A DNA stretch of 64,000 nucleotides from Bacteroidota bacterium. Lineage in GTDB: Bacteria; Bacteroidota; Bacteroidia; Bacteroidales; P3. The notes under the pieces are model-generated. The model searched no databases and was not told the DNA's origin. It saw only the letters and a program-made list of their open reading frames with translations. The stretch covers positions 145,323 to 209,322 of the forward strand of contig JAEZKK010000023.1 of assembly GCA_023415495.1 (NCBI GenBank), written 5' to 3'. Numbering within the stretch: position 1 is the stretch's first letter; every line of letters begins with the position of its first letter. The translations under genes and the position numbers were made by a program. Of the stretch, positions 1,706 through 57,709 are shown piece after piece.

Positions 1706-1727
1706 TAATCTATCGCTTATTTAGGTG

Positions 1728-1735
1728 CAAAATTA
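1728..1735 (-). promoter_or_regulatory. -7 box for queE
   Basis: CAAAATTA on the plus strand equals TAATTTTG on the minus strand, 23 nt before the ATG. Confidence 0.5.
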
Positions 1736-1823
1736 AAACTTATTTCCCAATAAAACGATAATACCTCAATCAATATCATTAGAGCTTAAGTTAAATTGGA
1801 AAACATCAAAGAAGAAATTACTG

Positions 1824-1855
1824 AAATCAAGAAACAAAGAATTCTTTCTTGATTT
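1824..1855 (-). terminator. 11-bp perfect hairpin closing element A
   Basis: AAATCAAGAAA / TTTCTTGATTT with the loop CAAAGAATTC. Read on the element strand, the loop is identical to that of the element B hairpin, and the stems differ by two compensated pairs. The trailing T-tract is weak. Confidence 0.45.
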
Positions 1856-2031
1856 AAAAGAATTCTTTCTTGAATAGAAAGTCACTATGGTAGCTACCAT
1901 AGCAGCATTATGGTAGCTACCACAAGGGTGTTATGGTACCTACCACACGACCCTTATCATAGCTACCATAACGTAGTTTTTGAAATTTTTTGGATTTAGA
2001 AGGAAATAAAGATTTCTATTCCTTGTGTTTA

Positions 2032-2039
2032 CAAAGATA
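2032..2039 (-). promoter_or_regulatory. -7 box (TATCTTTG on minus strand) reading into array A
   Basis: CAAAGATA on the plus strand. The surrounding sequence ATTCATTTATTTTTCGTATCTTTG is conserved with element B (ATTCATTTATTTTGCGTATATTTG). Confidence 0.55.
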
Positions 2040-2078
2040 CGAAAAATAAATGAATTATGACTAAAAAAATGTGTTTAT

Positions 2079-11060: not shown

Positions 11061-11106
11061 GTGAAATTTGAATTAGAAATCCTAAAGTCTAATTCCCTTC
11101 TAATGA

Positions 11107-11406
11107 AATTTGATTCTATTTTAATATAATGCCATTATACTTGCAATATAATGGCATTATTCTTACGATATAATGGCATTATATTAGATTGGAATTTGAT
11201 AAGAGTAGATTGAGGCTTGATTATGCGAGTTTTAAACTTGATTTAAAAGCTTGGTTTTTGGGATACAACCGATGGTTTTGTTGAATTATTGTATTGAATA
11301 AGGCTTTTTCTCATCGTTTCATCCAATTAATACTCTCTAACCTTTTGTTAATTAACATTTGAGTTAAGAGAACTATCTCTTGATTCTACGAAAATAGAAT
11401 CAAATT
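11107..11406. mobile_element. MITE-like element C: 16-bp perfect terminal inverted repeats enclosing a 3 x 22-bp TAATG-S-CATTA array
   Basis: AATTTGATTCTATTTT at 11107-11122 has its exact reverse complement at 11391-11406. Dyad cores are centred at 11132, 11154 and 11176. No ORF longer than about 20 aa lies inside. Confidence 0.7.
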
Positions 11407-11473
11407 GCATTTTTTTAGAATCCCGAGTTAGTTTTCTGTAATATGATTCTATTTTTCTGTAATTTGACTCTAA

Positions 11474-11512
11474 TCAAAAATAAGAGTTGATATCTTTATA
11501 TTTTCACTCTTA
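11474..11512 (-). terminator. terminator after umuC
   Basis: On the minus strand a 7-bp stem (TAAGAGT...ACTCTTA) is followed by TTTTTG. Confidence 0.45.
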
Positions 11513-11519
11513 TCATTTA

Positions 11520-12779
11520 TTAATGCACCTCGAGGATTTCGTTTATATTGGTTGTGTAGTGGTTTGATAGTTTTTCTTGTCTCATTTTCCATGTTCTTCC
11601 ATGGCTTTGTGCGGCAAGTCTTACAATATCTTTACTATAATATGAATTAATTTTATCAACAGCCTTCATTAGTTTCCAATGTCTTGGGTCACTTTCTTCA
11701 AAAAGAGATAGCTGTTTGTTCGACTCATTTATAAAGTCCATTACAATAACTCCGGCCTTCTTATACTTAAAGCCTTTTTGATAAATCTTCTTTAGACCAT
11801 TTGTTGCAAACTTAGATAATTCAATACTGCTATTGGTAGGATAGGGTAGCTTGAGGATAACGAAGTTTGAATATTGCTTTAAATCTTCTCGGAAATAATT
11901 TGTTGTTATAAAAACTTGAATCCTTGTGCAAAGGGAATGTTGCTTCCTTAGTTTCTCTGCACATTTACTTGCAAAAGTGGAGATTCTTTCTTCTATATCT
12001 TCCAAATCCTCCTTCATATTATCGAAGGTACGAGTTACAGCTATTGATTTTTTATCTTTAAATTTTTCTAATTCAATACTTGGTATTCCTTTTAAATCTC
12101 TCATTAGTAATAACCCTACAGAGGTGAGGTTTTTCTTTACCCAATTCTCATCTAAATTAGTAAAATCAAAAGCGTTATTAATATTCATTGCAAGTAACCT
12201 TTTTGAATGTTGTCGCCCTATTCCCCATACATCTCCAATCTTTGTCCACTTTAGGGCTTTAATCCTTTTATATTCGCTATCTATAATATGAATTCCATTG
12301 GTTTGTTTTGGAAATTTTTTAGCAACTCTTGTAGCAGTCTTAGCAAGGCTTTTTGTTGGACCAATTCCTATACTTATAGGTAGATGAGTGCATTTTTCAA
12401 CCTTTTTTTTTATCTCTAAAGCATATTCATAAATATCTTTTTCAATTCCTTTTAAACTAAGAAAGCACTCATCAATACTATATATTTCCATTTCTGGAGA
12501 AAAGCCCGAAAGAATAGTCATAACCCTATTAGACATATCTCCATATAGTTCGAAATTGGCAGAAAACACAGCAATATTATGCTTCTCTATTAAATGTTTT
12601 ATCTTAAAAGCAGGAACGCCCATTTTTACTCCGATATCTTTTGCCTCTTGGGAGCGAGCAATAGCACAACCATCATTATTGCTAAGTACAATAACAGGTC
12701 TTCCGATAAGTGAGGGATTAAAAACCCTTTCACAAGAGGCATAGAAATTATTACAATCTATATGTGCATAAAGGTTCAT
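11520..12779 (-). CDS. umuC: Y-family translesion DNA polymerase, UmuC-like
   Basis: 419 aa. The N-terminus (HIDCNNFYASCERVFNP...PVIVLSNNDGC) and SIDECFL are typical of UmuC. It lies immediately downstream of a UmuD-like gene. Confidence 0.85.
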   Translation of the reverse strand: MNLYAHIDCNNFYASCERVFNPSLIGRPVIVLSNNDGCAIARSQEAKDIGVKMGVPAFKIKHLIEKHNIAVFSANFELYGDMSNRVMTILSGFSPEMEIYSIDECFLSLKGIEKDIYEYALEIKKKVEKCTHLPISIGIGPTKSLAKTATRVAKKFPKQTNGIHIIDSEYKRIKALKWTKIGDVWGIGRQHSKRLLAMNINNAFDFTNLDENWVKKNLTSVGLLLMRDLKGIPSIELEKFKDKKSIAVTRTFDNMKEDLEDIEERISTFASKCAEKLRKQHSLCTRIQVFITTNYFREDLKQYSNFVILKLPYPTNSSIELSKFATNGLKKIYQKGFKYKKAGVIVMDFINESNKQLSLFEESDPRHWKLMKAVDKINSYYSKDIVRLAAQSHGRTWKMRQEKLSNHYTTNINEILEVH

Positions 12780-18265: not shown

Positions 18266-19693
18266 TTAGTCATTAAACTTTTTTTCTAATTCATCTACAA
18301 AGCTTTTAAAATCCTTGTCTGTTTCATAATGTTTTTCAACTTGGTTGCATGCATGCAATACTGTTGCGTGATTCTTCTTTCCACATTGAGAACCTATTAC
18401 AGTCAATGAATTTTTTGTAAGCTTTTTTGCAAAATACATCGAAAGCTGCCTGGCTCTAACTATCTCAAATTTTCTTGTAGGAGAATTAATCTTATCAACA
18501 GGCAGATCAAAATAATCACATACTACTTTTTGAATATAATCTATAGTTAATTCCCTCGCATTATTCTTAACGAATTTATCTATCATTTGTTTTGCAAGGT
18601 CAATAGTTATTGTTTTTTTATTAAATGAACTTTGTGCAAGTAGAGAGATTAAAGCTCCTTCTAATTCTCTAATGCTTGAATTAATATTATAGGCTAAATA
18701 CTCAATTATTTCATCACCCATTTCAATTCCGTCCTTGAATAGTTTTGTTTTAAGAATTTTAATTCTTGTTTCTACATCTGGATTCACTAAATCACAACTC
18801 AGTCCCCATTTAAGTCTGGATATTACCCTTTGTTCGAAATCAGCTAATTCAATTGGGGTTTTGTCGGAAGTAATTACTAATTGTTTGCCATTAGAATGTA
18901 GGGTGTTGAATATGTGGAAGAATGCTTCTTGAGTGCTATTTTTCTTTGCAAAGAATTGAATGTCGTCAATTATCAAAAGGTCAATCATTTGATAAAATTG
19001 CATGAAATCATTCTTTGAATTATTCATTATTGATTGAGTATATTGTTGGAAAAACTGTTCCGCAGAAACATATAAAACTGTTTTGTCAGGGAAATTCTTT
19101 TTTGTTTCAATTCCTATTGCATGTGCCAAATGAGTTTTACCAAGTCCGACTGAAGAGTAAATAAATAAAGGATTAAAAGAGCTTTTTCCTGGATTTTTAC
19201 TTACGGCATAACCAGCACTCCTTGCTAAACGGTTACAATCTCCTTCAATAAAATTTTCAAAGGATAAGTTATCGTTTAATTGAGAATTGATTTTAATTTT
19301 TTTAAGCCCAGGTAATATAAATGGATTAGGAAAATCCTTTTGATGAGAATTATTAATATTTACAGGAACATTTACTGGCTTGTTGTATGTAGCAGATTTA
19401 TTAGATGATGGTTGAAGAGTGTTATTAGGCACTCCTGAGTCAATTACATAAGAATAAAGAAGCTTAGCATCAGTCCCAATAACCCTTCGAATAGTTTTTT
19501 TTAGTAAATCCACATAATTCTCCTCAAGCCATTCGCAAAAGAATGGGCTAGGAACTTGAATGGTAAGTATTTTATTCTCTAATTGAAGTGGTTTTATTGG
19601 TTCGAACCATGTTTTGTACATATATTCATTGTCAAGAGCATCCTTAAATACATTAAGGCATTCTTTCCATACGTCCACATGATTTCTTTGCAT
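18266..19693 (-). CDS. dnaA: chromosomal replication initiator DnaA
   Basis: 475 aa. AAA+ motifs (NPLFIYSSVGLGKTHL, LLIIDDIQF) and a C-terminal DnaA-box-binding domain (R.R...AR...MY..K..T..S...IG..). Confidence 0.95.
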   Translation of the reverse strand: MQRNHVDVWKECLNVFKDALDNEYMYKTWFEPIKPLQLENKILTIQVPSPFFCEWLEENYVDLLKKTIRRVIGTDAKLLYSYVIDSGVPNNTLQPSSNKSATYNKPVNVPVNINNSHQKDFPNPFILPGLKKIKINSQLNDNLSFENFIEGDCNRLARSAGYAVSKNPGKSSFNPLFIYSSVGLGKTHLAHAIGIETKKNFPDKTVLYVSAEQFFQQYTQSIMNNSKNDFMQFYQMIDLLIIDDIQFFAKKNSTQEAFFHIFNTLHSNGKQLVITSDKTPIELADFEQRVISRLKWGLSCDLVNPDVETRIKILKTKLFKDGIEMGDEIIEYLAYNINSSIRELEGALISLLAQSSFNKKTITIDLAKQMIDKFVKNNARELTIDYIQKVVCDYFDLPVDKINSPTRKFEIVRARQLSMYFAKKLTKNSLTVIGSQCGKKNHATVLHACNQVEKHYETDKDFKSFVDELEKKFND

Positions 19694-20086
19694 AGTTTGT
19701 TGATAGTTTAAAAATTAGACATTATATATATATTGTAAGACTTCTTGCATTACAAAGACAAAATTAGACAAAAGAAAAAACAAGTCTAATAAATTTATTT
19801 CTTTGTCAATTCAAATTTATTTATATATAAACCTTGTTCAAGGTAAATCCATTATGAGGACAAAGTTTAAATGGTTTTCATTTCATGGAGTTATCAACAA
19901 TTCAGAATAAAAATAATGAAGAGCGGGCAATATAAGTATTTTTTATTTAATACAAAAATCTAAATCTAATTTTATTGTTTTTTTTATCAACATTAAACCT
20001 TTAAGGAATTAGTATGAATATCAATCATTAGAAAAAGTGTTTACTCGATTGGCATGCTTTTTTGTGGAAAAAAATATCGAATCAGA
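19694..20086. promoter_or_regulatory. candidate oriC region adjacent to dnaA
   Basis: 393-bp AT-rich non-coding gap. It holds 9-mers one mismatch from TTATCCACA at 19891-19899 and 19984-19992 (TTATCAACA) and at 20063-20071 (TGTGGAAAA, reverse orientation), plus a two-mismatch site at 19698-19706. TA-rich runs lie at 19721-19735 and 19813-19832. The coding-strand bias flips nearby. Confidence 0.45.
19759..19766 (-). promoter_or_regulatory. -7 box for dnaA
   Basis: CAAAATTA equals TAATTTTG on the minus strand. AAATTAGACA occurs twice nearby (about 19712 and 19761). Confidence 0.45.
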
Positions 20087-21879: not shown

Positions 21880-22734
21880 ATGAGAATTCCCTCCAATAGA
21901 ATCAAGGATATTAAACGTTTTGCAATTAATGAATTAAAGGATATTTATTCTGAAAATGAGATAAAGATAATGATAAGTCAATTAATCTCTCATTTCACTT
22001 CCTTCGACAATATCCAACAGTTAATATCTGAGGACAAAACAGTATTGGAGTCAGACCTTTTAAAGCTCAACTTCGCCATAAAAGACCTTAAGCATAATAA
22101 ACCCTTACAATACATAATAGGATTTAGTGAATTTTATAATCTAAGAATAGGCCTAAGAAACAAAGTCTTAATTCCGAGGGGGGAAACAGAGGAATTGGTC
22201 GATTTGATAATAAAAGAGAATAAGGATAGAGAGGGTTTAAAGATAGTTGACCTTTGCACAGGGAGCGGAGCAATTGCTTTGGCTCTCAAAAAGAATATTC
22301 CAAGCGCTAATGTATGGGCTGTTGATAATGATATTAATGCAATAAATCAAGCAAGGGAGAATTCCCAAACTCTTGGCATAGATATAAATATTTTAGAGCA
22401 AGATATTTTGAAACAAGGGTTTACTACGGAGAAATTTGATATTATTGTTTCTAATCCACCCTATGTTATGGAAAAAGAAAAGCAATTAATGAAAGAAAAT
22501 GTATTAGATTACGAGCCTCATCAAGCTCTTTTCGTTGAGGATAATAACCCATTAATTTTCTATAAGGCAATTGAGAAATTTTCTCAAACAAATCTAAACC
22601 CAAAAGGCAAGGTTTACTTAGAAATTAATGAAAATCTCTCAAAGCAAACCTCAGATTTATTTAAATTAGGGAGTGTAGAGGAGAGGAAAGATATTAATTC
22701 CAAAGACCGTTTTGTAATTGTTCGATTTTCTTGA
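21880..22734 (+). CDS. prmC: release factor glutamine N5-methyltransferase
   Basis: 284 aa. Has a SAM fold (DLCTGSGAIA) and NPPY. Confidence 0.85.
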   Translation: MRIPSNRIKDIKRFAINELKDIYSENEIKIMISQLISHFTSFDNIQQLISEDKTVLESDLLKLNFAIKDLKHNKPLQYIIGFSEFYNLRIGLRNKVLIPRGETEELVDLIIKENKDREGLKIVDLCTGSGAIALALKKNIPSANVWAVDNDINAINQARENSQTLGIDINILEQDILKQGFTTEKFDIIVSNPPYVMEKEKQLMKENVLDYEPHQALFVEDNNPLIFYKAIEKFSQTNLNPKGKVYLEINENLSKQTSDLFKLGSVEERKDINSKDRFVIVRFS

Positions 22735-22777
22735 TTTTTTTCTTTCAAATTTTACTTCGTAATTCATTTATTTTGCG

Positions 22778-22785
22778 TATATTTG
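22778..22785 (+). promoter_or_regulatory. orphan -7 box TATATTTG reading into array B
   Basis: Perfect TAnnTTTG between two convergent gene ends (prmC stop at 22734, T9SS gene stop at 23034). There is no plus-strand CDS downstream. Confidence 0.55.
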
Positions 22786-22981
22786 CAATTGTAAGGATAG
22801 AACTCTAATTTCCTTATATAAATCACCCCATTTTGTAAAACTACATTATGGTAGCTACCATAAGAGGCGTGTGGTAGGTACCATAACACCCTTGTGGTAG
22901 GTACCATAATGCTCGTGTGGTAGCTACCATAGTGAGATTGTAATCAAAGAAGAATACTTTGTAATCAAATAAGAAAAGTAT

Positions 22982-23015
22982 GGAATCAAATAAGAATTCT
23001 TTGTTATTTGATTCC
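22982..23015 (+). terminator. 12-bp perfect hairpin closing element B; may also terminate the convergent T9SS gene
   Basis: GGAATCAAATAA-GAATTCTTTG-TTATTTGATTCC. AT-rich, with only weak T-runs on both sides. Confidence 0.45.
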
Positions 23016-23033
23016 ATTAAATTTATTCTTGAC

Positions 23034-24464
23034 TTAGTTTACGATTAGCTTTTTAGAATTTGAGTATTTTCCACTTCTTAGATTTATAATATAGGTTCCC
23101 TTTCTTAGATTTCTTGTATTAATTACTAATTCTACTCTTTCATTTATTGGAGAGGACTTAATATTTTCAACCAATCTGCCTTTTATATCATAAATCAAAA
23201 TATCTAAGTCCTGGTTCAAGCCCTCAACCACAAGTTTTGCCTCAGTATTTGTAGGATTTGGATAAAGAAGAAAATCTTTTCCGTTAAAGCTAATCCCTTC
23301 TCCAAGAGAAACAATAATGTTTTTCATAGAATAATACAAATATGTTGAGTCATCACTCCAAGAATTTAAATCATCTGGGAATCCACTCGAATAAACAATA
23401 TTAGTAAGCATATTATTATAATTATCGAAGAATTCTGGCTTCATATAACCCAATTTGTCAGAAAATTGCAAAACATCATCTGAGGTATAATTATAATCAA
23501 ATAAGTTAATATACTTTTGAGTGCAAGCCATTTCTTGATTGTAATTAGTATATGTATTAATAAGGGTTTGATTATTGTTATTATCGTAATACAATGAATC
23601 AATGCTGTGAAGAACAAAGCCATCTGTTGCGTTGTGCATAAAATTATTTCTTGAAACCATTAAATTATTAGGATTGTATGTTAATGTTTGTTTCATTGAT
23701 GGCTTCCACAAGCTATCTTGATAAGCACTATAGTTTTCCATTAAGATTTGAGTAAGCAAATTATTAGAATTATAAGAGTTAAATGTTTTTGAACCATAAC
23801 TTAGCTCTCCTTCACTATTATAATACTCATTTTGTATATGTACTGGATTATTATTATTATCGTATAAATACTCAGTCTTAGAGCCAAGTTCTTCAATCCC
23901 TTCATTTTTATAATATGTTTCTATTTTGGTAATTAAATTGCTTTCATTGTAAAGGTAATCTGTCTTTCCATAATAAATCCAATAATTAGAGTCAAGGTCA
24001 AAAAAGTAATTTTCTTCTTTAGTAAGGAGATTATTTGTGTAATCCGAAAGAGTTTTCTGATTAAATAACCAGGCACTATCTATAAAAATACTCATTATCT
24101 CAGATATTTTGTTTCCGTTATTATCATAAAGATAATCGATATTCTCATGTTGGCGGAAAAAATTAGAGTCATAGTCCCAAATATAGTATAGAGTGTTAAT
24201 TAGATTCTCATTATTGTCATAAGTGTAAACATATTTACTGAATACATCCTTCATTAGGATTAATCTCCCGTATGAATCGTATTCATAAATTGTGGGTTCA
24301 TTTGGAGCATAGGCGTATGCGACGCTATCAAGCGCCATTAATTGGACATTTGCCTTTGATAAAATCTCTGATTTTGATTTGTTTTTCTCTGCTTTGCTTT
24401 GAGAAAAACTATTTTGTGAACCAATAATAATGAAACACAAAACAAGGAAGTAAATCTTTTTCAT
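23034..24464 (-). CDS. secreted YD-like repeat protein with T9SS C-terminal sorting domain
   Basis: 476 aa with a signal peptide. Carries Y.YD..G.L repeats (YEYDSYGRLI, YTYDNNENLI, YLYDNNGNKI). The C-terminus (LYPNPTN...LIYDIKGRLV...GTYIINL...KKLIVN) matches the Por/T9SS CTD pattern. Confidence 0.7.
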   Translation of the reverse strand: MKKIYFLVLCFIIIGSQNSFSQSKAEKNKSKSEILSKANVQLMALDSVAYAYAPNEPTIYEYDSYGRLILMKDVFSKYVYTYDNNENLINTLYYIWDYDSNFFRQHENIDYLYDNNGNKISEIMSIFIDSAWLFNQKTLSDYTNNLLTKEENYFFDLDSNYWIYYGKTDYLYNESNLITKIETYYKNEGIEELGSKTEYLYDNNNNPVHIQNEYYNSEGELSYGSKTFNSYNSNNLLTQILMENYSAYQDSLWKPSMKQTLTYNPNNLMVSRNNFMHNATDGFVLHSIDSLYYDNNNNQTLINTYTNYNQEMACTQKYINLFDYNYTSDDVLQFSDKLGYMKPEFFDNYNNMLTNIVYSSGFPDDLNSWSDDSTYLYYSMKNIIVSLGEGISFNGKDFLLYPNPTNTEAKLVVEGLNQDLDILIYDIKGRLVENIKSSPINERVELVINTRNLRKGTYIINLRSGKYSNSKKLIVN

Positions 24465-31640: not shown

Positions 31641-31803
31641 ATCTGTTAACTTTATTATTACCATTTTAAGAGGATGATTATATTATCCTCCATAACTTCT
31701 TTTATCCTGTTATTCCTAATTTTGGGAGTAATGGACATTTTTAATGGTTTATATTTCCCCACTTTTGTTATTCATTAGATTTTATTTGTTCTTTGGTAGT
31801 ATC

Positions 31804-32072
31804 CCTCTGTAGGGTTATTACTGATGAGAGATTTAAAAGCAATACCAAGTATTGAATTATCTAAGTTTGCAACAAATGGCCTAAAGAAGATATACCAAAA
31901 AGGCTATAAGTACAAAAAAGCAGGAGTAATTGTTATGGACTTTATTAACGAGTCGAACAAAGATATTGTAAGACTTGCCGCCCAAAGCCACGGAAGAACA
32001 TGGAAAATGAGACAAGAAAAACTATCAAACCACTATACAACCAATATAAACGAAATCCTCGAGGTGCATTAA
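31804..32072 (+). pseudogene. internally deleted relic of the 3' part of umuC (82-aa ORF still open)
   Basis: Three colinear DNA blocks match the reverse complement of the full gene: about 12069-12126, about 11715-11828 and about 11520-11633. The track ORF 31824-32072 is a splice-like concatenation of UmuC residues (LMRDLKGIPSIEL / SKFATNGLKKIYQKG.KYKKAGVIVMDFINESNK / DIVRLAAQSHGRTWKMRQEKLSNHYTTNINEILEVH). Confidence 0.85.
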
Positions 32073-32203
32073 TAAATGATTAGGTTCTTTTTTGGTTTCA
32101 TTTAGATGATACTTATAGATATAAAAATAGAATCAGATTAAATTTTCTTTGATTAAAGAAATAGAAAATGGGGCTTAGCGATGAAAAAGACTTTTAGATT
32201 TAC

Positions 32204-32211
32204 TATCTTTG
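32204..32211 (+). promoter_or_regulatory. -7 box for the methyltransferase-rarA-dus string
   Basis: TATCTTTG, 8 nt before the ATG. Confidence 0.5.
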
Positions 32212-32218
32212 CAAAACT

Positions 32219-38913: not shown

Positions 38914-39022
38914 CAACCAAATCAGAGATAAATAAAATCATATATTAAAATAATACGATTTTTTGCTTGAAATAAATCTTGTAAAACTTAGTATTAAAGT
39001 CAATTAATAGGACTTTGAACTA

Positions 39023-39195
39023 TTTTTTCTTGATTTCAATCTCTAATTCATGGCATGATACTCTGCATATCATGCCATGATATTGTCAGAATCATGGCAT
39101 GATGTTACCGGAATCATGGCATGATGTTGACAGAATCATGCCATGATGTTGAGAACTTCATGGCATGATGTTGAGATTGAAATCAAGAAAAAAAA
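39023..39195. mobile_element. MITE-like element D: 21-bp perfect inverted repeats enclosing a 6 x 22-bp TCATG-S-CATGA array
   Basis: TTTTTTCTTGATTTCAATCTC at 39023-39043 pairs with GAGATTGAAATCAAGAAAAAA at 39173-39193. Core centres at 39053, 39075, 39097, 39119, 39141 and 39163 are exactly 22 bp apart. Confidence 0.8.
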
Positions 39196-39428
39196 GTTTG
39201 AATCTTGATTTGATTAGTTCTTTATTTGATTTTGCTACTCTAAACTCAAGGATATTTTCTTTTATTGCAAGGATAACTTGTATTTTAAAACTCAAGAGCT
39301 GAAAGAATAGGGTTCTAAAATAAATTCAATTTGATTGGTTTCAATTTTTTATCGTATCTTTGAAGGTTAATTATACTGTCTTCTGCAGGATAATTATCTT
39401 GAAAAAAGGAAAAGATTTAAATATATAT

Positions 39429-56204: not shown

Positions 56205-56624
56205 CTATTCATCTTTCGTTACCAATCCCTTTGGTGGTTTGCGCATATTGTCGAATTTCATTTCTTTTATGGCTCTTGTTAGGGAACGTGCGGCTTTAAA
56301 GGTTACTTTTGTTGCTTTAACTTTCTTCGGATTAATATCTTTAGGGTCGTCATAGCCTTCACTGGTTACCCAAACTCCAAACACTCCAATCTTTTTCAAG
56401 TTTACATTTTCACCTTGCATTAAATGATATTCAATACGATTGGAAAGTGCAGCCACCATCCCCAATACGTCTGGTTCAGAGAAAGATGACATTTCTGACA
56501 CCTCTCTTACTAAAGTTTCTTCATCAACAACTCTTGATGTTCTTGGACATGCATAGTATTTTTCTACAACATTTCCCTCAGCATCTTTAAATTTTCTTTT
56601 CCAAATTCCGAATATTTTACTCAT
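56205..56624 (-). CDS. Bacteroidota-type long HU-like DNA-binding protein
   Basis: 139 aa. The central segment (L..G..V.L..IG.F.......G) resembles the HU beta-arm region. The layout matches the HU-related family restricted to Bacteroidota (from memory). Confidence 0.7.
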   Translation of the reverse strand: MSKIFGIWKRKFKDAEGNVVEKYYACPRTSRVVDEETLVREVSEMSSFSEPDVLGMVAALSNRIEYHLMQGENVNLKKIGVFGVWVTSEGYDDPKDINPKKVKATKVTFKAARSLTRAIKEMKFDNMRKPPKGLVTKDE

Positions 56625-56728
56625 AATCAGATAATTTTAATTTTATACTTAGTTTTAATCTTATTTATTCCCAATTCAAATTGAATTAATCCTATTTCAA
56701 ACTATTTATACAAGGTTTCTATCTCCAA

Positions 56729-56899
56729 TTCATATAATGATATAGCAAATATCATGCCATGAATTAGTTGAAATCATGGCATGAATTGGTCGGATTCATG
56801 GCATGATTCTAAGCAATTCATGGCATGAAATGGAGAACATCATGGCATGAATTCGTGTTCATCATGACATGATTCCGAGATCGAAATCAAATAAAAAAA
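56729..56899. repeat. element E: 7 x 22-bp TCATG-S-CATGA array (first and last units degenerate), paralog of D, upstream of the HU-like gene
   Basis: Core centres at 56735, 56757, 56779, 56801, 56823, 56845 and 56867. The right flank GAGATCGAAATCAAATAAAAAAAGTT...CTTGAT aligns with D's right flank. The left arm is degenerate (TTTCTATCTC versus GAGATCGAAA). Confidence 0.8.
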
Positions 56900-56938
56900 G
56901 TTAAAAACTTGATATAATTAGCTTTATACTTGATTTGC

Positions 56939-57709
56939 TTAGCGTTTAACTTGATTTTGTCTTGCAAATTCGGCACAAATTATCGAGGTTGCTATGCTTG
57001 CGTTTAGGCTTTCGATTTTTTGGTCTAAGGAAAAGCATGGTATGGTGATTGGATTGGTAATTAAAGGCAGGATTTCCTTGCTAATGCCGTGTGATTCGCT
57101 ACCTATTACTATTATTCCTTGATTTGGGAGGTCTTGGGTGTAGATATTCTTTCCTCCTTGCACAACGGTGCCAAAAACTTTATACTTCTTATCTAAGACT
57201 TTTAAATATTCCTCAAGATTTTGGCAAGTAACATTTACCCTAAAGAGGGAACCCATTGTGGATTGCACGGTTTTGGGGTTATATAATTCCACAGAATCTT
57301 CCGAACATATAATATCTTTTATACCAAACCAATCGGCAAGGCGAATAATTGTACCAAGATTGCCTGGGTCCTTAATTCCATCCAAAGCAATAACCAATCT
57401 ATTTTCGTTTTCAATAGGTTTGTTAGGAATATTCTCCAATAAGGCTATAACTTTATTAGGAGTGGAGAGATTAGATAGCTTTTGAAGCTCATCACTATTA
57501 ACAATATAAACCTCATCTGCAATATCTTTCAATTCCTTTTCCCTATCCTGAATATAATCCTCAAGAGCAAAAACAGCCAATATCCTCCTCTTGCTTTCTA
57601 TTAGCTCATCCACCATCTTAACTCCTTCAACCAAGAACCTACCCTCCTCTTTCCTATGCTTAAGCGATTTAAGCAACGAAATCTTTTTAATCAAAGCCTT
57701 TGAAATCAT
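56939..57709 (-). CDS. TrmH/SpoU family RNA 2'-O-methyltransferase
   Basis: SpoU motifs (LDGI.DPGNLGTIIR, IGSE..G) and an N-terminal substrate-binding domain. ATG at 57709 is used; the track's TTG at 57736 lies inside the -7 box. Confidence 0.8.
   Translation of the reverse strand: MISKALIKKISLLKSLKHRKEEGRFLVEGVKMVDELIESKRRILAVFALEDYIQDREKELKDIADEVYIVNSDELQKLSNLSTPNKVIALLENIPNKPIENENRLVIALDGIKDPGNLGTIIRLADWFGIKDIICSEDSVELYNPKTVQSTMGSLFRVNVTCQNLEEYLKVLDKKYKVFGTVVQGGKNIYTQDLPNQGIIVIGSESHGISKEILPLITNPITIPCFSLDQKIESLNASIATSIICAEFARQNQVKR

What the first reader, a model, noticed from the sequence alone, without database searches (positions are those of the whole stretch)
22757..23015. Orphan promoter box, phased dyad-repeat array and covarying hairpin: a stand-alone non-coding unit between two convergent genes
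A perfect Bacteroidota -7 box (TATATTTG, 22778-22785) points rightward into DNA that lies between two gene ends, so it has no CDS to serve. About 60 nt downstream are four copies of the dyad TGGTA-NN-TACCA, with centres exactly 23 bp apart. Three direct AATCAAAKAAGAA copies follow at a 21-bp period. The last of these forms a 12-bp perfect hairpin (22982-23015) with the loop GAATTCTTTG. A paralog at 1800-2060 on the opposite strand keeps the promoter context, leader, array and the identical loop. Its stem differs at two positions that are both compensated (AATCAAGAAA/TTTCTTGATT versus AATCAAATAA/TTATTTGATT). Compensatory change around an invariant loop argues for selection on structure rather than decay of a dead repeat. 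The unit therefore looks like a roughly 230-nt transcript (sRNA or decoy) or a protein-loading site with its own transcription.
Basis: partly seen in the sequence, partly recalled or inferred. Interest (0 to 1): 0.72.

Follow-up and report, generated by a model that had tools for sequence, protein, structure and literature searches.

The report
Dispersed promoter-bearing hairpin-array repeat element
This 300-bp gap between two genes holds one copy of an undescribed repeat family scattered through uncultured Bacteroidales genomes; each copy has its own promoter, four near-identical small palindromes and an A/T-rich tail, and probably makes a structured non-coding RNA of unknown role.

Summary
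It is not a two-copy curiosity. Copy A (22735-23033, +) and copy B (1781-2078, -) belong to a family of at least 36-40 distinct intergenic loci of about 285 bp in uncultured Bacteroidales, 28 of them in one metagenome. No Rfam family, plasmid or phage matches it.

All copies share a fixed order:
- an A/T-rich upstream region;
- a -7 box (TATCTTTG in nearly all copies; TATATTTG in A);
- a covarying 5' stem-loop;
- exactly four 23-nt units carrying TGGTA-NN-TACCA;
- a tail of 21-nt AAATCAAAG units closed by inverted CTTGATT units.

Related species have empty orthologous sites for both A and B, so the copies arrived by insertion. Promoter and leader evolve three times more slowly than the flanks. 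The sense-strand RNA of the array is the more stable strand in 35 of 36 copies.

The window holds three more arrays of the same build with other palindromes. The best reading is a DNA-dispersed, self-transcribed non-coding RNA module, a BOX/BIME-like mosaic repeat with a promoter. Its function is unproven.

The parts
22735..22777 (+). Copy A: A/T-rich region upstream of the promoter (AATTCATTTATTTT), conserved across the family. It starts right after the prmC stop codon.
   Evidence: Family alignment. Ortholog-pair substitution rate is 0.99% against 4.16% in the flanks.
22778..22785 (+). Copy A: Bacteroidota-type -7 box, TATATTTG (TATCTTTG in most copies).
   Evidence: TANNTTTGCAA occurs 15 times against 2.2 expected in the window. 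0 of 144 substitutions between ortholog pairs.
22790..22818 (+). Copy A: 5' leader stem-loop (AAGGA...TCCTT core) just after the predicted transcription start.
   Evidence: Predicted fold. Five of 7 pairs show changes on both sides and 84% of cells are paired.
22819..22845 (+). Copy A: linker with the conserved AAATCAC and AAAACTACA motifs.
   Evidence: Family consensus.
22846..22932 (+). Copy A: four 23-nt units, each holding TGGTA-NN-TACCA. Cores are at 22849-22860, 22872-22883, 22895-22906 and 22918-22929. The centres read GC, GG, GG, GC.
   Evidence: Every full copy has four unit positions at a fixed 23-nt step.
22938..23004 (+). Copy A: tail of three 21-nt AATCAAAKAAGAA units. Other copies have 2 to 5.
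22982..23015 (+). Copy A: terminal hairpin formed by the last tail unit and an inverted TTGATT unit (12 bp, loop GAATTCTTTG).
   Evidence: It is strong here (-17.7 kcal/mol) but weak or absent in most family members.
23024..23033 (+). Copy A: last CTTGAC unit, the right end of the element. It abuts the stop codon of the convergent T9SS-tail gene.
1781..2078 (-). Copy B, the paralogous element. Its -7 box TATCTTTG is at 2032-2039. The array is at 1886-1972, with three perfect dyads and one degenerate. The terminal hairpin is at 1822-1855.
   Evidence: It was inserted between folD and queE, which lie 5-13 nt apart in relatives.
1728..1735 (-). Copy B: outward-facing -7 box TAATTTTG in a 3' extension, 22 nt before the queE start codon. 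It probably restores queE transcription after the insertion.
   Evidence: Six other copies carry a similar module, ATAAAAATAATTCCTTAACTTTGACACTTG.
39014..39232 (.). Related array C with a different palindrome: 6 x TCATGSCATGA at 22 bp. It is enclosed by a perfect 19-nt inverted repeat and followed by an AATCAAG/CTTGATT hairpin and unit.
56727..56960 (.). Related array D: 7 units of TCATGSCATGA at 22 bp, then GAGATCGAAATCAAA and three CTTGATT units at 21 bp.
11100..11270 (.). Related array E: 3 x TATAATGSCATTATA at 22 bp, then YTTGATW units at 21 bp.

Best explanation
The unit at 22735-23033 and its paralog at 1781-2078 are two members of a dispersed family of intergenic modules, each about 285 bp, in uncultured Bacteroidales.

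Shown:
- Each member has the same fixed parts in the same order: an A/T-rich upstream region, a canonical Bacteroidota -7 box, a 5' stem-loop, four 23-nt units each carrying the palindrome TGGTA-NN-TACCA, and a tail of 21-nt AAATCAAAG units closed by one or two inverted CTTGATT units.
- Members sit between unrelated housekeeping genes, with no associated protein gene.
- Copies A and B are absent from the orthologous sites of related species, so they arrived by DNA insertion.
- Promoter and leader are under stronger constraint than the surrounding DNA.

Inferred:
- Each copy is transcribed from its own promoter into an RNA of about 230-250 nt. The RNA starts with a protective stem-loop and presents the array either as four tandem hairpins or as a fold-back duplex.
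- The RNA acts as a multivalent platform (sponge or decoy) for a factor that recognises this hairpin sequence.
- The A/U-rich tail hairpin serves at most as a weak terminator.

How the copies are mobilised is unknown. Some copies also carry an outward promoter that keeps the downstream gene expressed after insertion.
For: Family size and spread:
- A metagenome scan for three dyads gave 76 loci.
- A profile built from A and B hit 66 elements at 100 bits or more, most of them spanning nearly the whole model.
- These reduce to 36 non-redundant loci, or 40 clusters at 92% identity, 28 of them in one metagenome.
- Three species-representative Bacteroidales genomes hold full copies.

Anatomy:
- Order and spacing are fixed, with four unit positions at a 23-nt step in every copy.

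Stand-alone and dispersed:
- All copies are intergenic.
- 113 flanking proteins hit 137 Pfam families. None recurs more than twice, and no transposase family appears among the 25 families shown.

Insertion:
- In a relative with 66% PrmC identity, prmC and the T9SS gene overlap and there is no element.
- In relatives with 82% and 77% FolD identity, folD and queE are 5 and 13 nt apart.

Transcription:
- The box matches the promoter type found in front of genes in this window.
- In 18 independent ortholog pairs, promoter plus leader differ at 1.36% against 4.16% in the flanks (odds ratio 0.32, p = 6e-11), and the box at 0 of 144 positions.
- In co-directional intergenic regions the element points with the genes 11 times and against them 2 times (p = 0.02).

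RNA level:
- Leader helix: 5 of 7 pairs have changes on both sides.
- A G.T wobble, never A.C, occupies the position outside the searched core in 34 of 36 copies of units 2 and 3.
- The sense-strand array RNA is more stable in 35 of 36 copies, mean -48.9 against -41.8 kcal/mol.
- Copy A folds at -85 kcal/mol, z = -9.5, against -67.5 kcal/mol for the antisense strand.
Against: - There are no expression data, so the transcription start, RNA ends and abundance are all inferred.
- The dyad stems show no covariation.
- Invariance of the cores of units 2 and 3 is partly built in, because the scan required three perfect dyads. One strain has a core SNP.
- The copies are related by descent, so counts such as 35 of 36 are not independent.
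- Gene conversion among copies could mimic purifying selection.
- Sister arrays in the window use palindromes (TCATG-S-CATGA, TAATG-S-CATTA) whose 1-nt centre leaves at most about 4 stem pairs around a 3-nt loop, so I judge them too short for stable local RNA hairpins (not folded here). That suggests recognition as duplex DNA. Array C has no canonical -7 box pointing into it, and D and E have only one-mismatch or distant candidate boxes.
- No partner protein was identified.
- No terminal inverted repeats were found, and there is no general target-site duplication, so mobilisation is unexplained.
- No canonical intrinsic terminator was found.
Confidence: 0.55

Rival explanations
1. DNA-level binding array. 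The palindromes are operators for a dimeric DNA-binding protein, and the 21-nt AATCAAG units bind a second protein. They form a nucleoprotein complex similar to iteron or centromere-like arrays. Transcription from the box would be regulated by this complex or incidental to it.
For: - The dyads are 5-8-bp half-sites with 1-2-bp centres repeated every 21-23 bp. At least eight different palindromes use the same layout in these genomes.
- Several of them have a 1-nt centre, which leaves too few stem pairs for a stable RNA hairpin in my judgement (not folded here).
- The cores do not covary, which suggests that sequence rather than shape is read.
- The heptamer AATCAAG/CTTGATT recurs at 21-bp phase in all three families in the window.
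Against: - The strand asymmetry has no meaning for a symmetric dimer on duplex DNA: G.T but never A.C at a conserved flank position, and GG never CC at the centres of units 2 and 3.
- The sense strand folds better in 35 of 36 copies.
- The most constrained parts are the promoter and the covarying leader hairpin, not only the dyads.
- A 23-bp step is not an integral number of helical turns.
- More than 100 high-affinity sites per genome in three or more specificities would need several dedicated proteins, and none is encoded nearby.
Confidence: 0.2
2. A purely selfish mosaic repeat of the BIME/REPIN/BOX type with no host function. A trans-acting transposase copies the palindrome cluster. The promoter and apparent constraint reflect recent spread and gene conversion, and any RNA is a by-product.
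For: - Copy number is high and copies are present or absent between related species.
- The build is a mosaic of interchangeable 21-23-nt modules in direct and inverted order.
- Unit 1 is flipped relative to units 2 and 3 in 13 of 36 copies.
- The number of tail units varies.
- GTAG/CTAC lies inside the palindrome, recalling the REP hallmark (my own knowledge of REP/RAYT).
- Pneumococcal BOX, RUP and SPRITE repeats were judged parasitic on similar grounds (PMC3049150).
Against: - No transposase family appears among the 25 Pfam families shown for 113 neighbouring proteins.
- No terminal inverted repeats or consistent target duplication were found.
- Paralogs are old. Identity was not measured across all copies; A and B, the only paralog pair aligned, share 79% mean column identity. 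Yet the -7 box is kept in all 36.
- Orthologous copies show three-fold lower divergence in promoter and leader than in flanks that include coding DNA.
- Elements point with their flanking genes 11 times against 2.
Confidence: 0.25
3. A cis-acting punctuation cassette. The hairpin array and tail stop or insulate transcription of the upstream gene, and promoter modules restart it for the downstream gene.
For: - Elements begin 0-70 nt after the stop of a co-oriented upstream gene in many loci.
- Nine of 30 classifiable loci are between convergent genes.
- Copy B splits a formerly adjacent folD-queE pair and carries an outward -7 box before queE. Six other copies share this module.
Against: - The conserved strong promoter points into the array, not out of it.
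- No G+C-rich stem followed by a T run was found.
- Ten of 32 upstream genes point away from the element.
- Copy A has no downstream gene to restart.
Confidence: 0.1

Closest known systems
BOX elements of Streptococcus pneumoniae (boxA, boxB x n, boxC); PMC3049150
   Same: - Small, non-coding, modular interspersed repeats in intergenic DNA.
- A tandemly repeated module between distinct end modules.
- Extensive predicted secondary structure.
- Present or absent between close relatives.
- Can alter neighbouring gene expression, and some are transcribed.
   Different: - A different phylum, and no sequence similarity was tested or expected.
- BOX has no promoter of its own as a defining part.
- In BOX the central module varies in number. 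Here the array always has four unit positions and it is the tail units that vary.
- Here several families share one scaffold but use different palindromes.
BIME / REP / REPIN elements of proteobacteria (PMC8049555; Gilson 1991, Nunvar 2010 and Bertels & Rainey 2011 from my own knowledge)
   Same: - Clusters of short palindromic units combined with other conserved motifs in a mosaic.
- Extragenic and high in copy number.
- Units can occur in either orientation.
- A GTAG/CTAC motif is present.
   Different: - REPs are 20-40-nt imperfect palindromes with GTAG at the foot of the stem. Here the palindromes are 16-18 nt and GTAG is at the centre.
- REPs depend on RAYT transposases, and none was seen here.
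- REP clusters carry no conserved promoter or 5' leader.
FopS/GibS multicopy small RNAs of Bacteroides (PMC11697453)
   Same: - A multicopy (12-15 per genome) family of non-coding RNAs in the Bacteroidales.
- Each copy is driven by the canonical sigma-ABfr promoter.
- Copies are dispersed in the genome and associated with an RNA-binding protein.
   Different: - FopS RNAs are 65-70 nt, with a single-stranded seed and a terminator hairpin, and act by base-pairing to susC mRNAs.
- The present RNA would be about 230-250 nt, dominated by four identical hairpins, with no evident seed.
- No Rfam hit was obtained, although the FopS authors report depositing the family in Rfam (PMC11697453).
Protein-sequestering RNAs such as CsrB/RsmZ (my own knowledge)
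   Same: - A short hairpin motif repeated many times on one highly expressed RNA.
- This is the functional analogy proposed here.
   Different: - Csr/Rsm RNAs display GGA in loops and bind CsrA/RsmA. There are no GGA loops here.
- I believe CsrA is not typical of Bacteroidales; this was not tested.
- Csr/Rsm RNAs have 1-5 copies per genome and are not insertion-polymorphic.
Mobile or re-used promoters (PMC3575422)
   Same: Nearly identical promoter-containing segments are found upstream of unrelated genes within and between genomes.
   Different: Here the main promoter fires into a non-coding array. Only a subset of copies has an outward promoter toward the next gene.
Type III toxin-antitoxin antitoxin RNAs (ToxI-like; my own knowledge)
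   Same: A promoter is followed by a short tandem array of RNA repeats.
   Different: - ToxI-type repeats are 34-45 nt and are always followed by the toxin gene.
- Here the units are 23 nt and the neighbouring genes are unrelated housekeeping genes.

Membership tests
Any Rfam 15 RNA family | A match to a curated covariance model at its gathering score | tested here: not met
   There were no hits in the 64-kb window or in 121 kb of 14 related loci. An E<=10 scan of 22650-23100 gave only sub-threshold chance hits to miRNA and snoRNA models.
FopS/GibS multicopy sRNA | A 65-70-nt RNA with the conserved R1 seed and a terminator hairpin; the authors report depositing the family in Rfam | tested here: not met
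   No Rfam hit. The predicted RNA is about 230-250 nt with four hairpins. The family description comes from PMC11697453.
FopS/GibS multicopy sRNA | A canonical sigma-ABfr promoter (TAnnTTTG) in front of each copy | tested here: met
   The -7 box is kept in all 36 copies and is the same type found before genes in the window.
REP/BIME/REPIN | Extragenic, high copy number, clustered palindromic units | tested here: met
   36-40 distinct intergenic loci, 28 of them in one metagenome.
REP/BIME/REPIN | A 20-40-nt imperfect palindrome with a conserved GTAG at the 5' foot of the stem | tested here: not met
   The palindromes are 16-18 nt and GTAG/CTAC lies at the centre, TGGTAGCTACCA.
REP/BIME/REPIN | A cognate RAYT (Y1/HUH) transposase gene, usually flanked by the repeats | tested here: inconclusive
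   No transposase family appears among the 25 Pfam families shown for the 113 ORFs next to 36 loci. Whole genomes could not be searched.
BOX element | boxA, a variable number of boxB, then boxC | tested here: not met
   The build is modular, but the central array always has four unit positions. Only the tail units vary, from 2 to 5.
MITE | Terminal inverted repeats and a target-site duplication | tested here: inconclusive
   No terminal inverted repeats are evident in the alignment. Shared k-mers across the junctions occur in 18 of 36 loci against 14 of 36 in the control. Only copy B shows a possible 9-10-bp duplication, ATAGATTAAT.
Type III toxin-antitoxin (ToxIN-like) | The repeat array is followed by a toxin endoribonuclease gene | tested here: not met
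   Downstream genes are unrelated housekeeping genes and 12 of 34 are convergent.
CRISPR array | 24-48-nt repeats separated by unique spacers of 26-72 nt | tested here: not met
   The period is 23 nt with 5-9-nt linkers, and the linkers are conserved between copies.
Csr/Rsm-type sponge RNA | Multiple GGA motifs in hairpin loops, and a CsrA/RsmA partner | tested here: not met
   The loops read AGCU or AGGU. Presence of CsrA was not tested. This is a functional analogy only.
Intrinsic (Rho-independent) terminator | A G+C-rich stem followed by a T run | tested here: not met
   No terminator-like sites were found in 22600-23200. The terminal hairpin is A/U-rich and weak in most copies.

The most novel reading that the evidence does not exclude
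The Bacteroidales genomes sampled here carry a whole system of 'addressable' arrays. There are at least eight families that share one scaffold of phased 21-23-nt modules, often with a promoter, but each displays a different short palindrome. Each family would be matched to its own cognate binding protein. The arrays would act as expressed RNA or DNA decoys that set the free concentration of those proteins, which would be a new, mobile layer of regulation by titration.
Probability: 0.15. Interest if true: 0.85.

Novelty: new variant of a known kind. Interest (0 to 1): 0.6.

Why it matters
Interspersed mosaic repeats such as REP/BIME and BOX are well known in proteobacteria and streptococci. I found no description of anything like this in Bacteroidales. 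None of the families I compared has, as defining parts, a conserved promoter and a covarying 5' leader.

If the RNA is made from dozens of loci at once, it would be among the most abundant non-coding RNAs of these organisms, which are common in the metagenome assemblies sampled here. It would also be a candidate protein sponge in a phylum that, to my knowledge, largely lacks Hfq and CsrA.

The family gives a clean case of promoter-carrying DNA inserting into operons (folD-queE) and between convergent genes. That makes the regulatory rewiring caused by such elements directly testable.

The parallel families with different palindromes offer a natural specificity-swap series for finding the partner factor.

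Tried and rejected
1. Known RNA families. Rfam at gathering score on the window and on 14 related loci, and a permissive scan of the locus, gave nothing usable.
2. Phage or plasmid origin. There was no blastn match in the phage or plasmid collections and no hit in viral contigs.
Three true family members were still recovered from it.
4. Terminal hairpin covariation. It holds between A and B but not across the family.
5. Long-range fold-back pairing versus four local hairpins. Because the units are palindromes, both models fit equally and the cores carry no covariation. Weak support for unit 1 pairing with unit 4: the centres read CG instead of GC in 3 copies.
6. An inverted repeat between the upstream region and the leader (GTGATTTT/AAAATCAC) is present in only a minority of copies.
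7. Target-site duplications show no signal above the control.
8. A conserved neighbouring gene, transposase or toxin: none.
9. Small ORFs. ATG GTA GCT ACC ATA ... TAG runs from unit 1 to unit 2 and would give a 9-residue peptide. It exists only because of the palindrome, varies with the linkers, and the 23-nt period breaks the reading frame. I judged it non-coding.
10. CRISPR, type III antitoxin and intrinsic terminator readings fail on their defining features (and the membership table).
11. Literature searches for the dyad sequence and for similar Bacteroidales or Flavobacterium repeats found no description.
Full report
**Observation**

- TATATTTG lies at 22778-22785.
- The palindrome TGGTA-NN-TACCA starts at 22849, 22872, 22895 and 22918.
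- Three AATCAAAKAAGAA units lie at a 21-nt period.
- A perfect 12-bp hairpin with loop GAATTCTTTG lies at 22982-23015.

The unit fills the 299-bp gap between prmC (21880-22734, +) and a convergent gene for a protein with a T9SS sorting tail (23034-24464, -). The dyad pattern occurs 7 times in the window against 1.34 expected, always in these two places. Tandem Repeats Finder reports the 23-nt and 21-nt periods. The minus-strand paralog at about 1781-2078 aligns at 79%. The box is of the type this genome uses: TANNTTTGCAA occurs 15 times against 2.2 expected, mostly directly upstream of gene starts.

**Source organism**

Exact-protein look-ups place the window on a 278-kb scaffold of an uncultured 'Bacteroidales bacterium' MAG. 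The window is near dnaA and has 31.8% G+C.

**It is a family, not a pair**

- A metagenome scan for three dyads at 22-24-bp spacing returned 76 loci.
- About 60 of them come from contigs of 26-38% G+C and share the same flanking sequences. All have a 23/23/23 spacing.
- A profile built from A and B matched 66 elements at 100 bits or more, most across nearly the whole model.
- These reduce to 36 non-redundant loci, or 40 clusters at 92% identity, 28 of them in a single metagenome.
- One of those contigs is 98.7% identical to the window.
- Three species-representative Bacteroidales genomes hold full-length copies.
- Rfam has no match in the window or in 121 kb of related loci.
- Plasmid, phage and viral-contig collections have none.
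- The literature searches found no description.

**Anatomy of the family**

1. An A-run and an A/T-rich region, ATAATTCAAnTATTTT.
2. TTATCTTTGCAA, with the -7 box kept in all copies.
3. A stem-loop, AAGGAAAT...ATTTCCTT.
4. A linker with AAAATCACC and AAAACTACA.
5. Four 23-nt unit positions in every copy. Units 1 and 4 are often perfect 18-nt palindromes with a GC centre. Units 2 and 3 read GTGTGGTAGGTACCATAAC, with a GG centre and a G.T 'pair' flanking the core.
6. A junction, GTGA(G/C)ATTnAAATCAAAG.
7. Two to five 21-nt units, AAATCAAAGAAAAATWCTTTT.
8. One or two inverted units, CTTGATT.

Six copies and copy B continue with a 3' extension that carries an outward -7 box.

**Where the copies sit**

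All copies are intergenic. Their 113 nearest ORFs hit 137 different Pfam families. None recurs more than twice, and no transposase family appears among the 25 families shown. Intergenic types are mixed: 13 co-directional, 9 convergent and 8 divergent. In co-directional gaps the element points with the genes 11 times and against them 2 times (p = 0.02).

**Insertion polymorphism**

- In a related species with 66% PrmC identity, the synteny dnaA, Impact_N-domain gene, ribD, prmC, T9SS gene is kept. There prmC and the T9SS gene overlap by 15 nt and no element is present.
- In relatives with 82% and 77% FolD identity, folD and queE are 5 and 13 nt apart. The window has 373 bp there, containing copy B.
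- The right junction of B retains ATAGATTAAT, identical to the relative's folD end. This hints at a 9-10-bp target duplication.
- A family-wide test found no duplication signal above the control.
- No terminal inverted repeats are evident.
- Strains of the same species keep copy A with about 1% differences, including one SNP inside a dyad core.

**Evidence that the unit is transcribed and works as RNA**

- In 18 independent ortholog pairs, substitutions are 4.16% in 250-bp flanks that include coding DNA. They are 0.99% in the 45 nt upstream of the box, 0 of 144 in the box, 1.83% in the leader, 3.77% in the linkers between dyads, and 2.08% plus most of the indels in the tail.
- Promoter plus leader, which the search pattern did not select for, differ from the flanks with an odds ratio of 0.32 and p = 6e-11.
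- The leader helix has changes on both sides in 5 of 7 pairs, with 84% of cells paired.
- The position just outside the searched core is G.T in 34 of 36 copies of units 2 and 3, and in 13 of 36 copies of unit 4. It is never A.C there.
- Accordingly the sense-strand RNA of the array is more stable than the antisense strand in 35 of 36 copies, -48.9 against -41.8 kcal/mol.
- Copy A folds at -85 kcal/mol (z = -9.5) against -67.5 kcal/mol for the opposite strand.

**Caveats**

- The dyad cores carry no covariation.
- The invariance of units 2 and 3 is partly by construction, because the scan demanded three perfect dyads.
- The copies are related by descent, so the counts are not independent.
- Gene conversion could mimic constraint.
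- Because the units are palindromes, four local hairpins and a long fold-back duplex fit equally well.

**The terminal hairpin**

Across the family, however:
- Only the AATCAA/TTGATT core is kept.
- The inner stem positions pair in about 35-70% of copies, with many uncompensated changes such as 9 A.C at the first inner position.
- Most copies fold at only -1 to -7 kcal/mol.
- In 8 of 36 copies the script found no such pair of motifs.

The 'invariant loop' is the conserved second half of the 21-nt unit. No canonical terminator is detected.

**A wider superfamily**

The window has three more arrays of the same layout with other palindromes:
- C at 39014-39232: 6 x TCATGSCATGA, enclosed by a perfect 19-nt inverted repeat.
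- D at 56727-56960: 7 units of the same dyad.
- E at 11100-11270: 3 x TATAATGSCATTATA.

Each is followed by a junction like GAGATTGnAATCAA and by CTTGATT units at 21 bp. These arrays occupy five of the eight or so intergenic gaps longer than 290 bp in the window. Related contigs add at least five further palindromes at 21-22 bp. Those are flanked by other phased modules (TAGAATCAAAT, ACAAGAAGTCTAA, GAGATAACTATC) in direct and inverted order. This mosaic build is what most resembles BIMEs and BOX elements. The conserved promoter and leader are what set family 1 apart.

**Interpretation**

Shown:
- A dispersed, insertion-polymorphic, non-coding module with a constrained promoter and leader.
- A fixed four-unit array.

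Inferred:
- It is transcribed into a structured RNA of about 230-250 nt.
- The repeated hairpin makes that RNA a multivalent binding platform.

The main rival is recognition of the palindromes as duplex DNA by dimeric proteins. That reading explains the sister families with very short palindromes better. It does not explain the strand asymmetry or the leader. A purely selfish reading explains the spread but not the constraint pattern. These readings are not mutually exclusive. No expression data or partner protein could be obtained with the tools at hand.

**Verdict**

The closest analogues are BOX and BIME/REP mosaic repeats (PMC3049150, PMC8049555) and the multicopy FopS RNAs of Bacteroides (PMC11697453). 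It meets the membership criteria of none of them. I rate it a new variant of a known kind, with interest 0.6.

Noticed in passing
window 39014-39232: Array C is six TCATGSCATGA dyads at 22 bp between the divergent pdxJ and recJ promoters. It is enclosed by a perfect 19-nt inverted repeat (TTTTCTTGATTTCAATCTC / GAGATTGAAATCAAGAAAA) and followed by an AATCAAG...CTTGATT hairpin. It has no canonical -7 box of its own, only two TATCCTTG near-matches on the minus strand.
   Followed up: partly
window 56727-56960: Array D is seven units of the same TCATGSCATGA dyad (the first degenerate), then GAGATCGAAATCAAA and three CTTGATW units at 21 bp. It lies 100 nt upstream of an HU-HIG DNA-binding protein gene (56205-56624, -) and overlaps the 3' end of a SpoU methylase gene.
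   Followed up: partly
window 11100-11480: Array E is three TATAATGSCATTATA dyads at 22 bp plus YTTGATW units. A separate module, TTGATTCTACGAAAATAGAATCAAAT, lies at about 11370-11480 and recurs next to other arrays in related contigs (L100, L132).
   Followed up: partly
L097:2061, L100:11397, L113:173, L132:12602, L116:885, L131:13453: There are five further dyad-array families at 21-22 bp in contigs of 29-34% G+C that also carry family-1 elements: AATAGSCTATT, AAAATCSGATTTT, AGGACTWAGTCCT, AAATGSCATTT and AAAGTCGCACTTT. Each is flanked by its own phased 21-22-nt modules in direct and inverted order. This suggests a large mosaic repeat superfamily.
   Followed up: partly
window 1706-1800 (minus strand); L102, L108, L111, L124, L138, L148: A 3' extension of some family-1 copies carries an outward -7 box (consensus ATAAAAATAATTCCTTAACTTTGACACTTG; TAATTTTG at 1728-1735 in copy B). 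In the loci where the downstream gene could be called, it is co-oriented with this box.
   Followed up: partly
window 1706-1716 and 2076-2086: The right junction of copy B keeps ATAGATTAAT, identical to the 3' end of folD in a relative with an empty site. The left junction reads AAAGACTAAAT. This may be a 9-10-bp target-site duplication.
   Followed up: partly
window 11509-12124 versus 31804-32083: Inverted repeats of 89-97% identity are present. A fragment of the 3' part of the umuC-like (IMS) gene at 11520-12779 is duplicated as a pseudogene piece (DUF4113) in the 578-bp gap at 31641-32218.
   Followed up: no
window 18266-20086: dnaA lies at 18266-19693 (-) with a 393-bp upstream gap at 19694-20086, so the window is probably next to the replication origin. 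I did not test whether dyad arrays are enriched near the origin.
   Followed up: no
L162:3841-4171: A strain 98-99% identical to the window has a T-to-C change inside the core of dyad 2 of copy A (TGGTAGGCACCA). Copies with damaged cores therefore exist, and the pattern scan missed them.
   Followed up: yes
L010, L013, L016, L055, L069 (Planctomycetaceae MAGs); L087, L090, L101, L115, L122, L130: These are unrelated arrays that happen to contain TGGTA-NN-TACCA. The planctomycete contigs have repeats at a 42-bp period. Contigs of about 45% G+C have long tandem runs of ATGGTATATACC at a 12-bp period.
   Followed up: no
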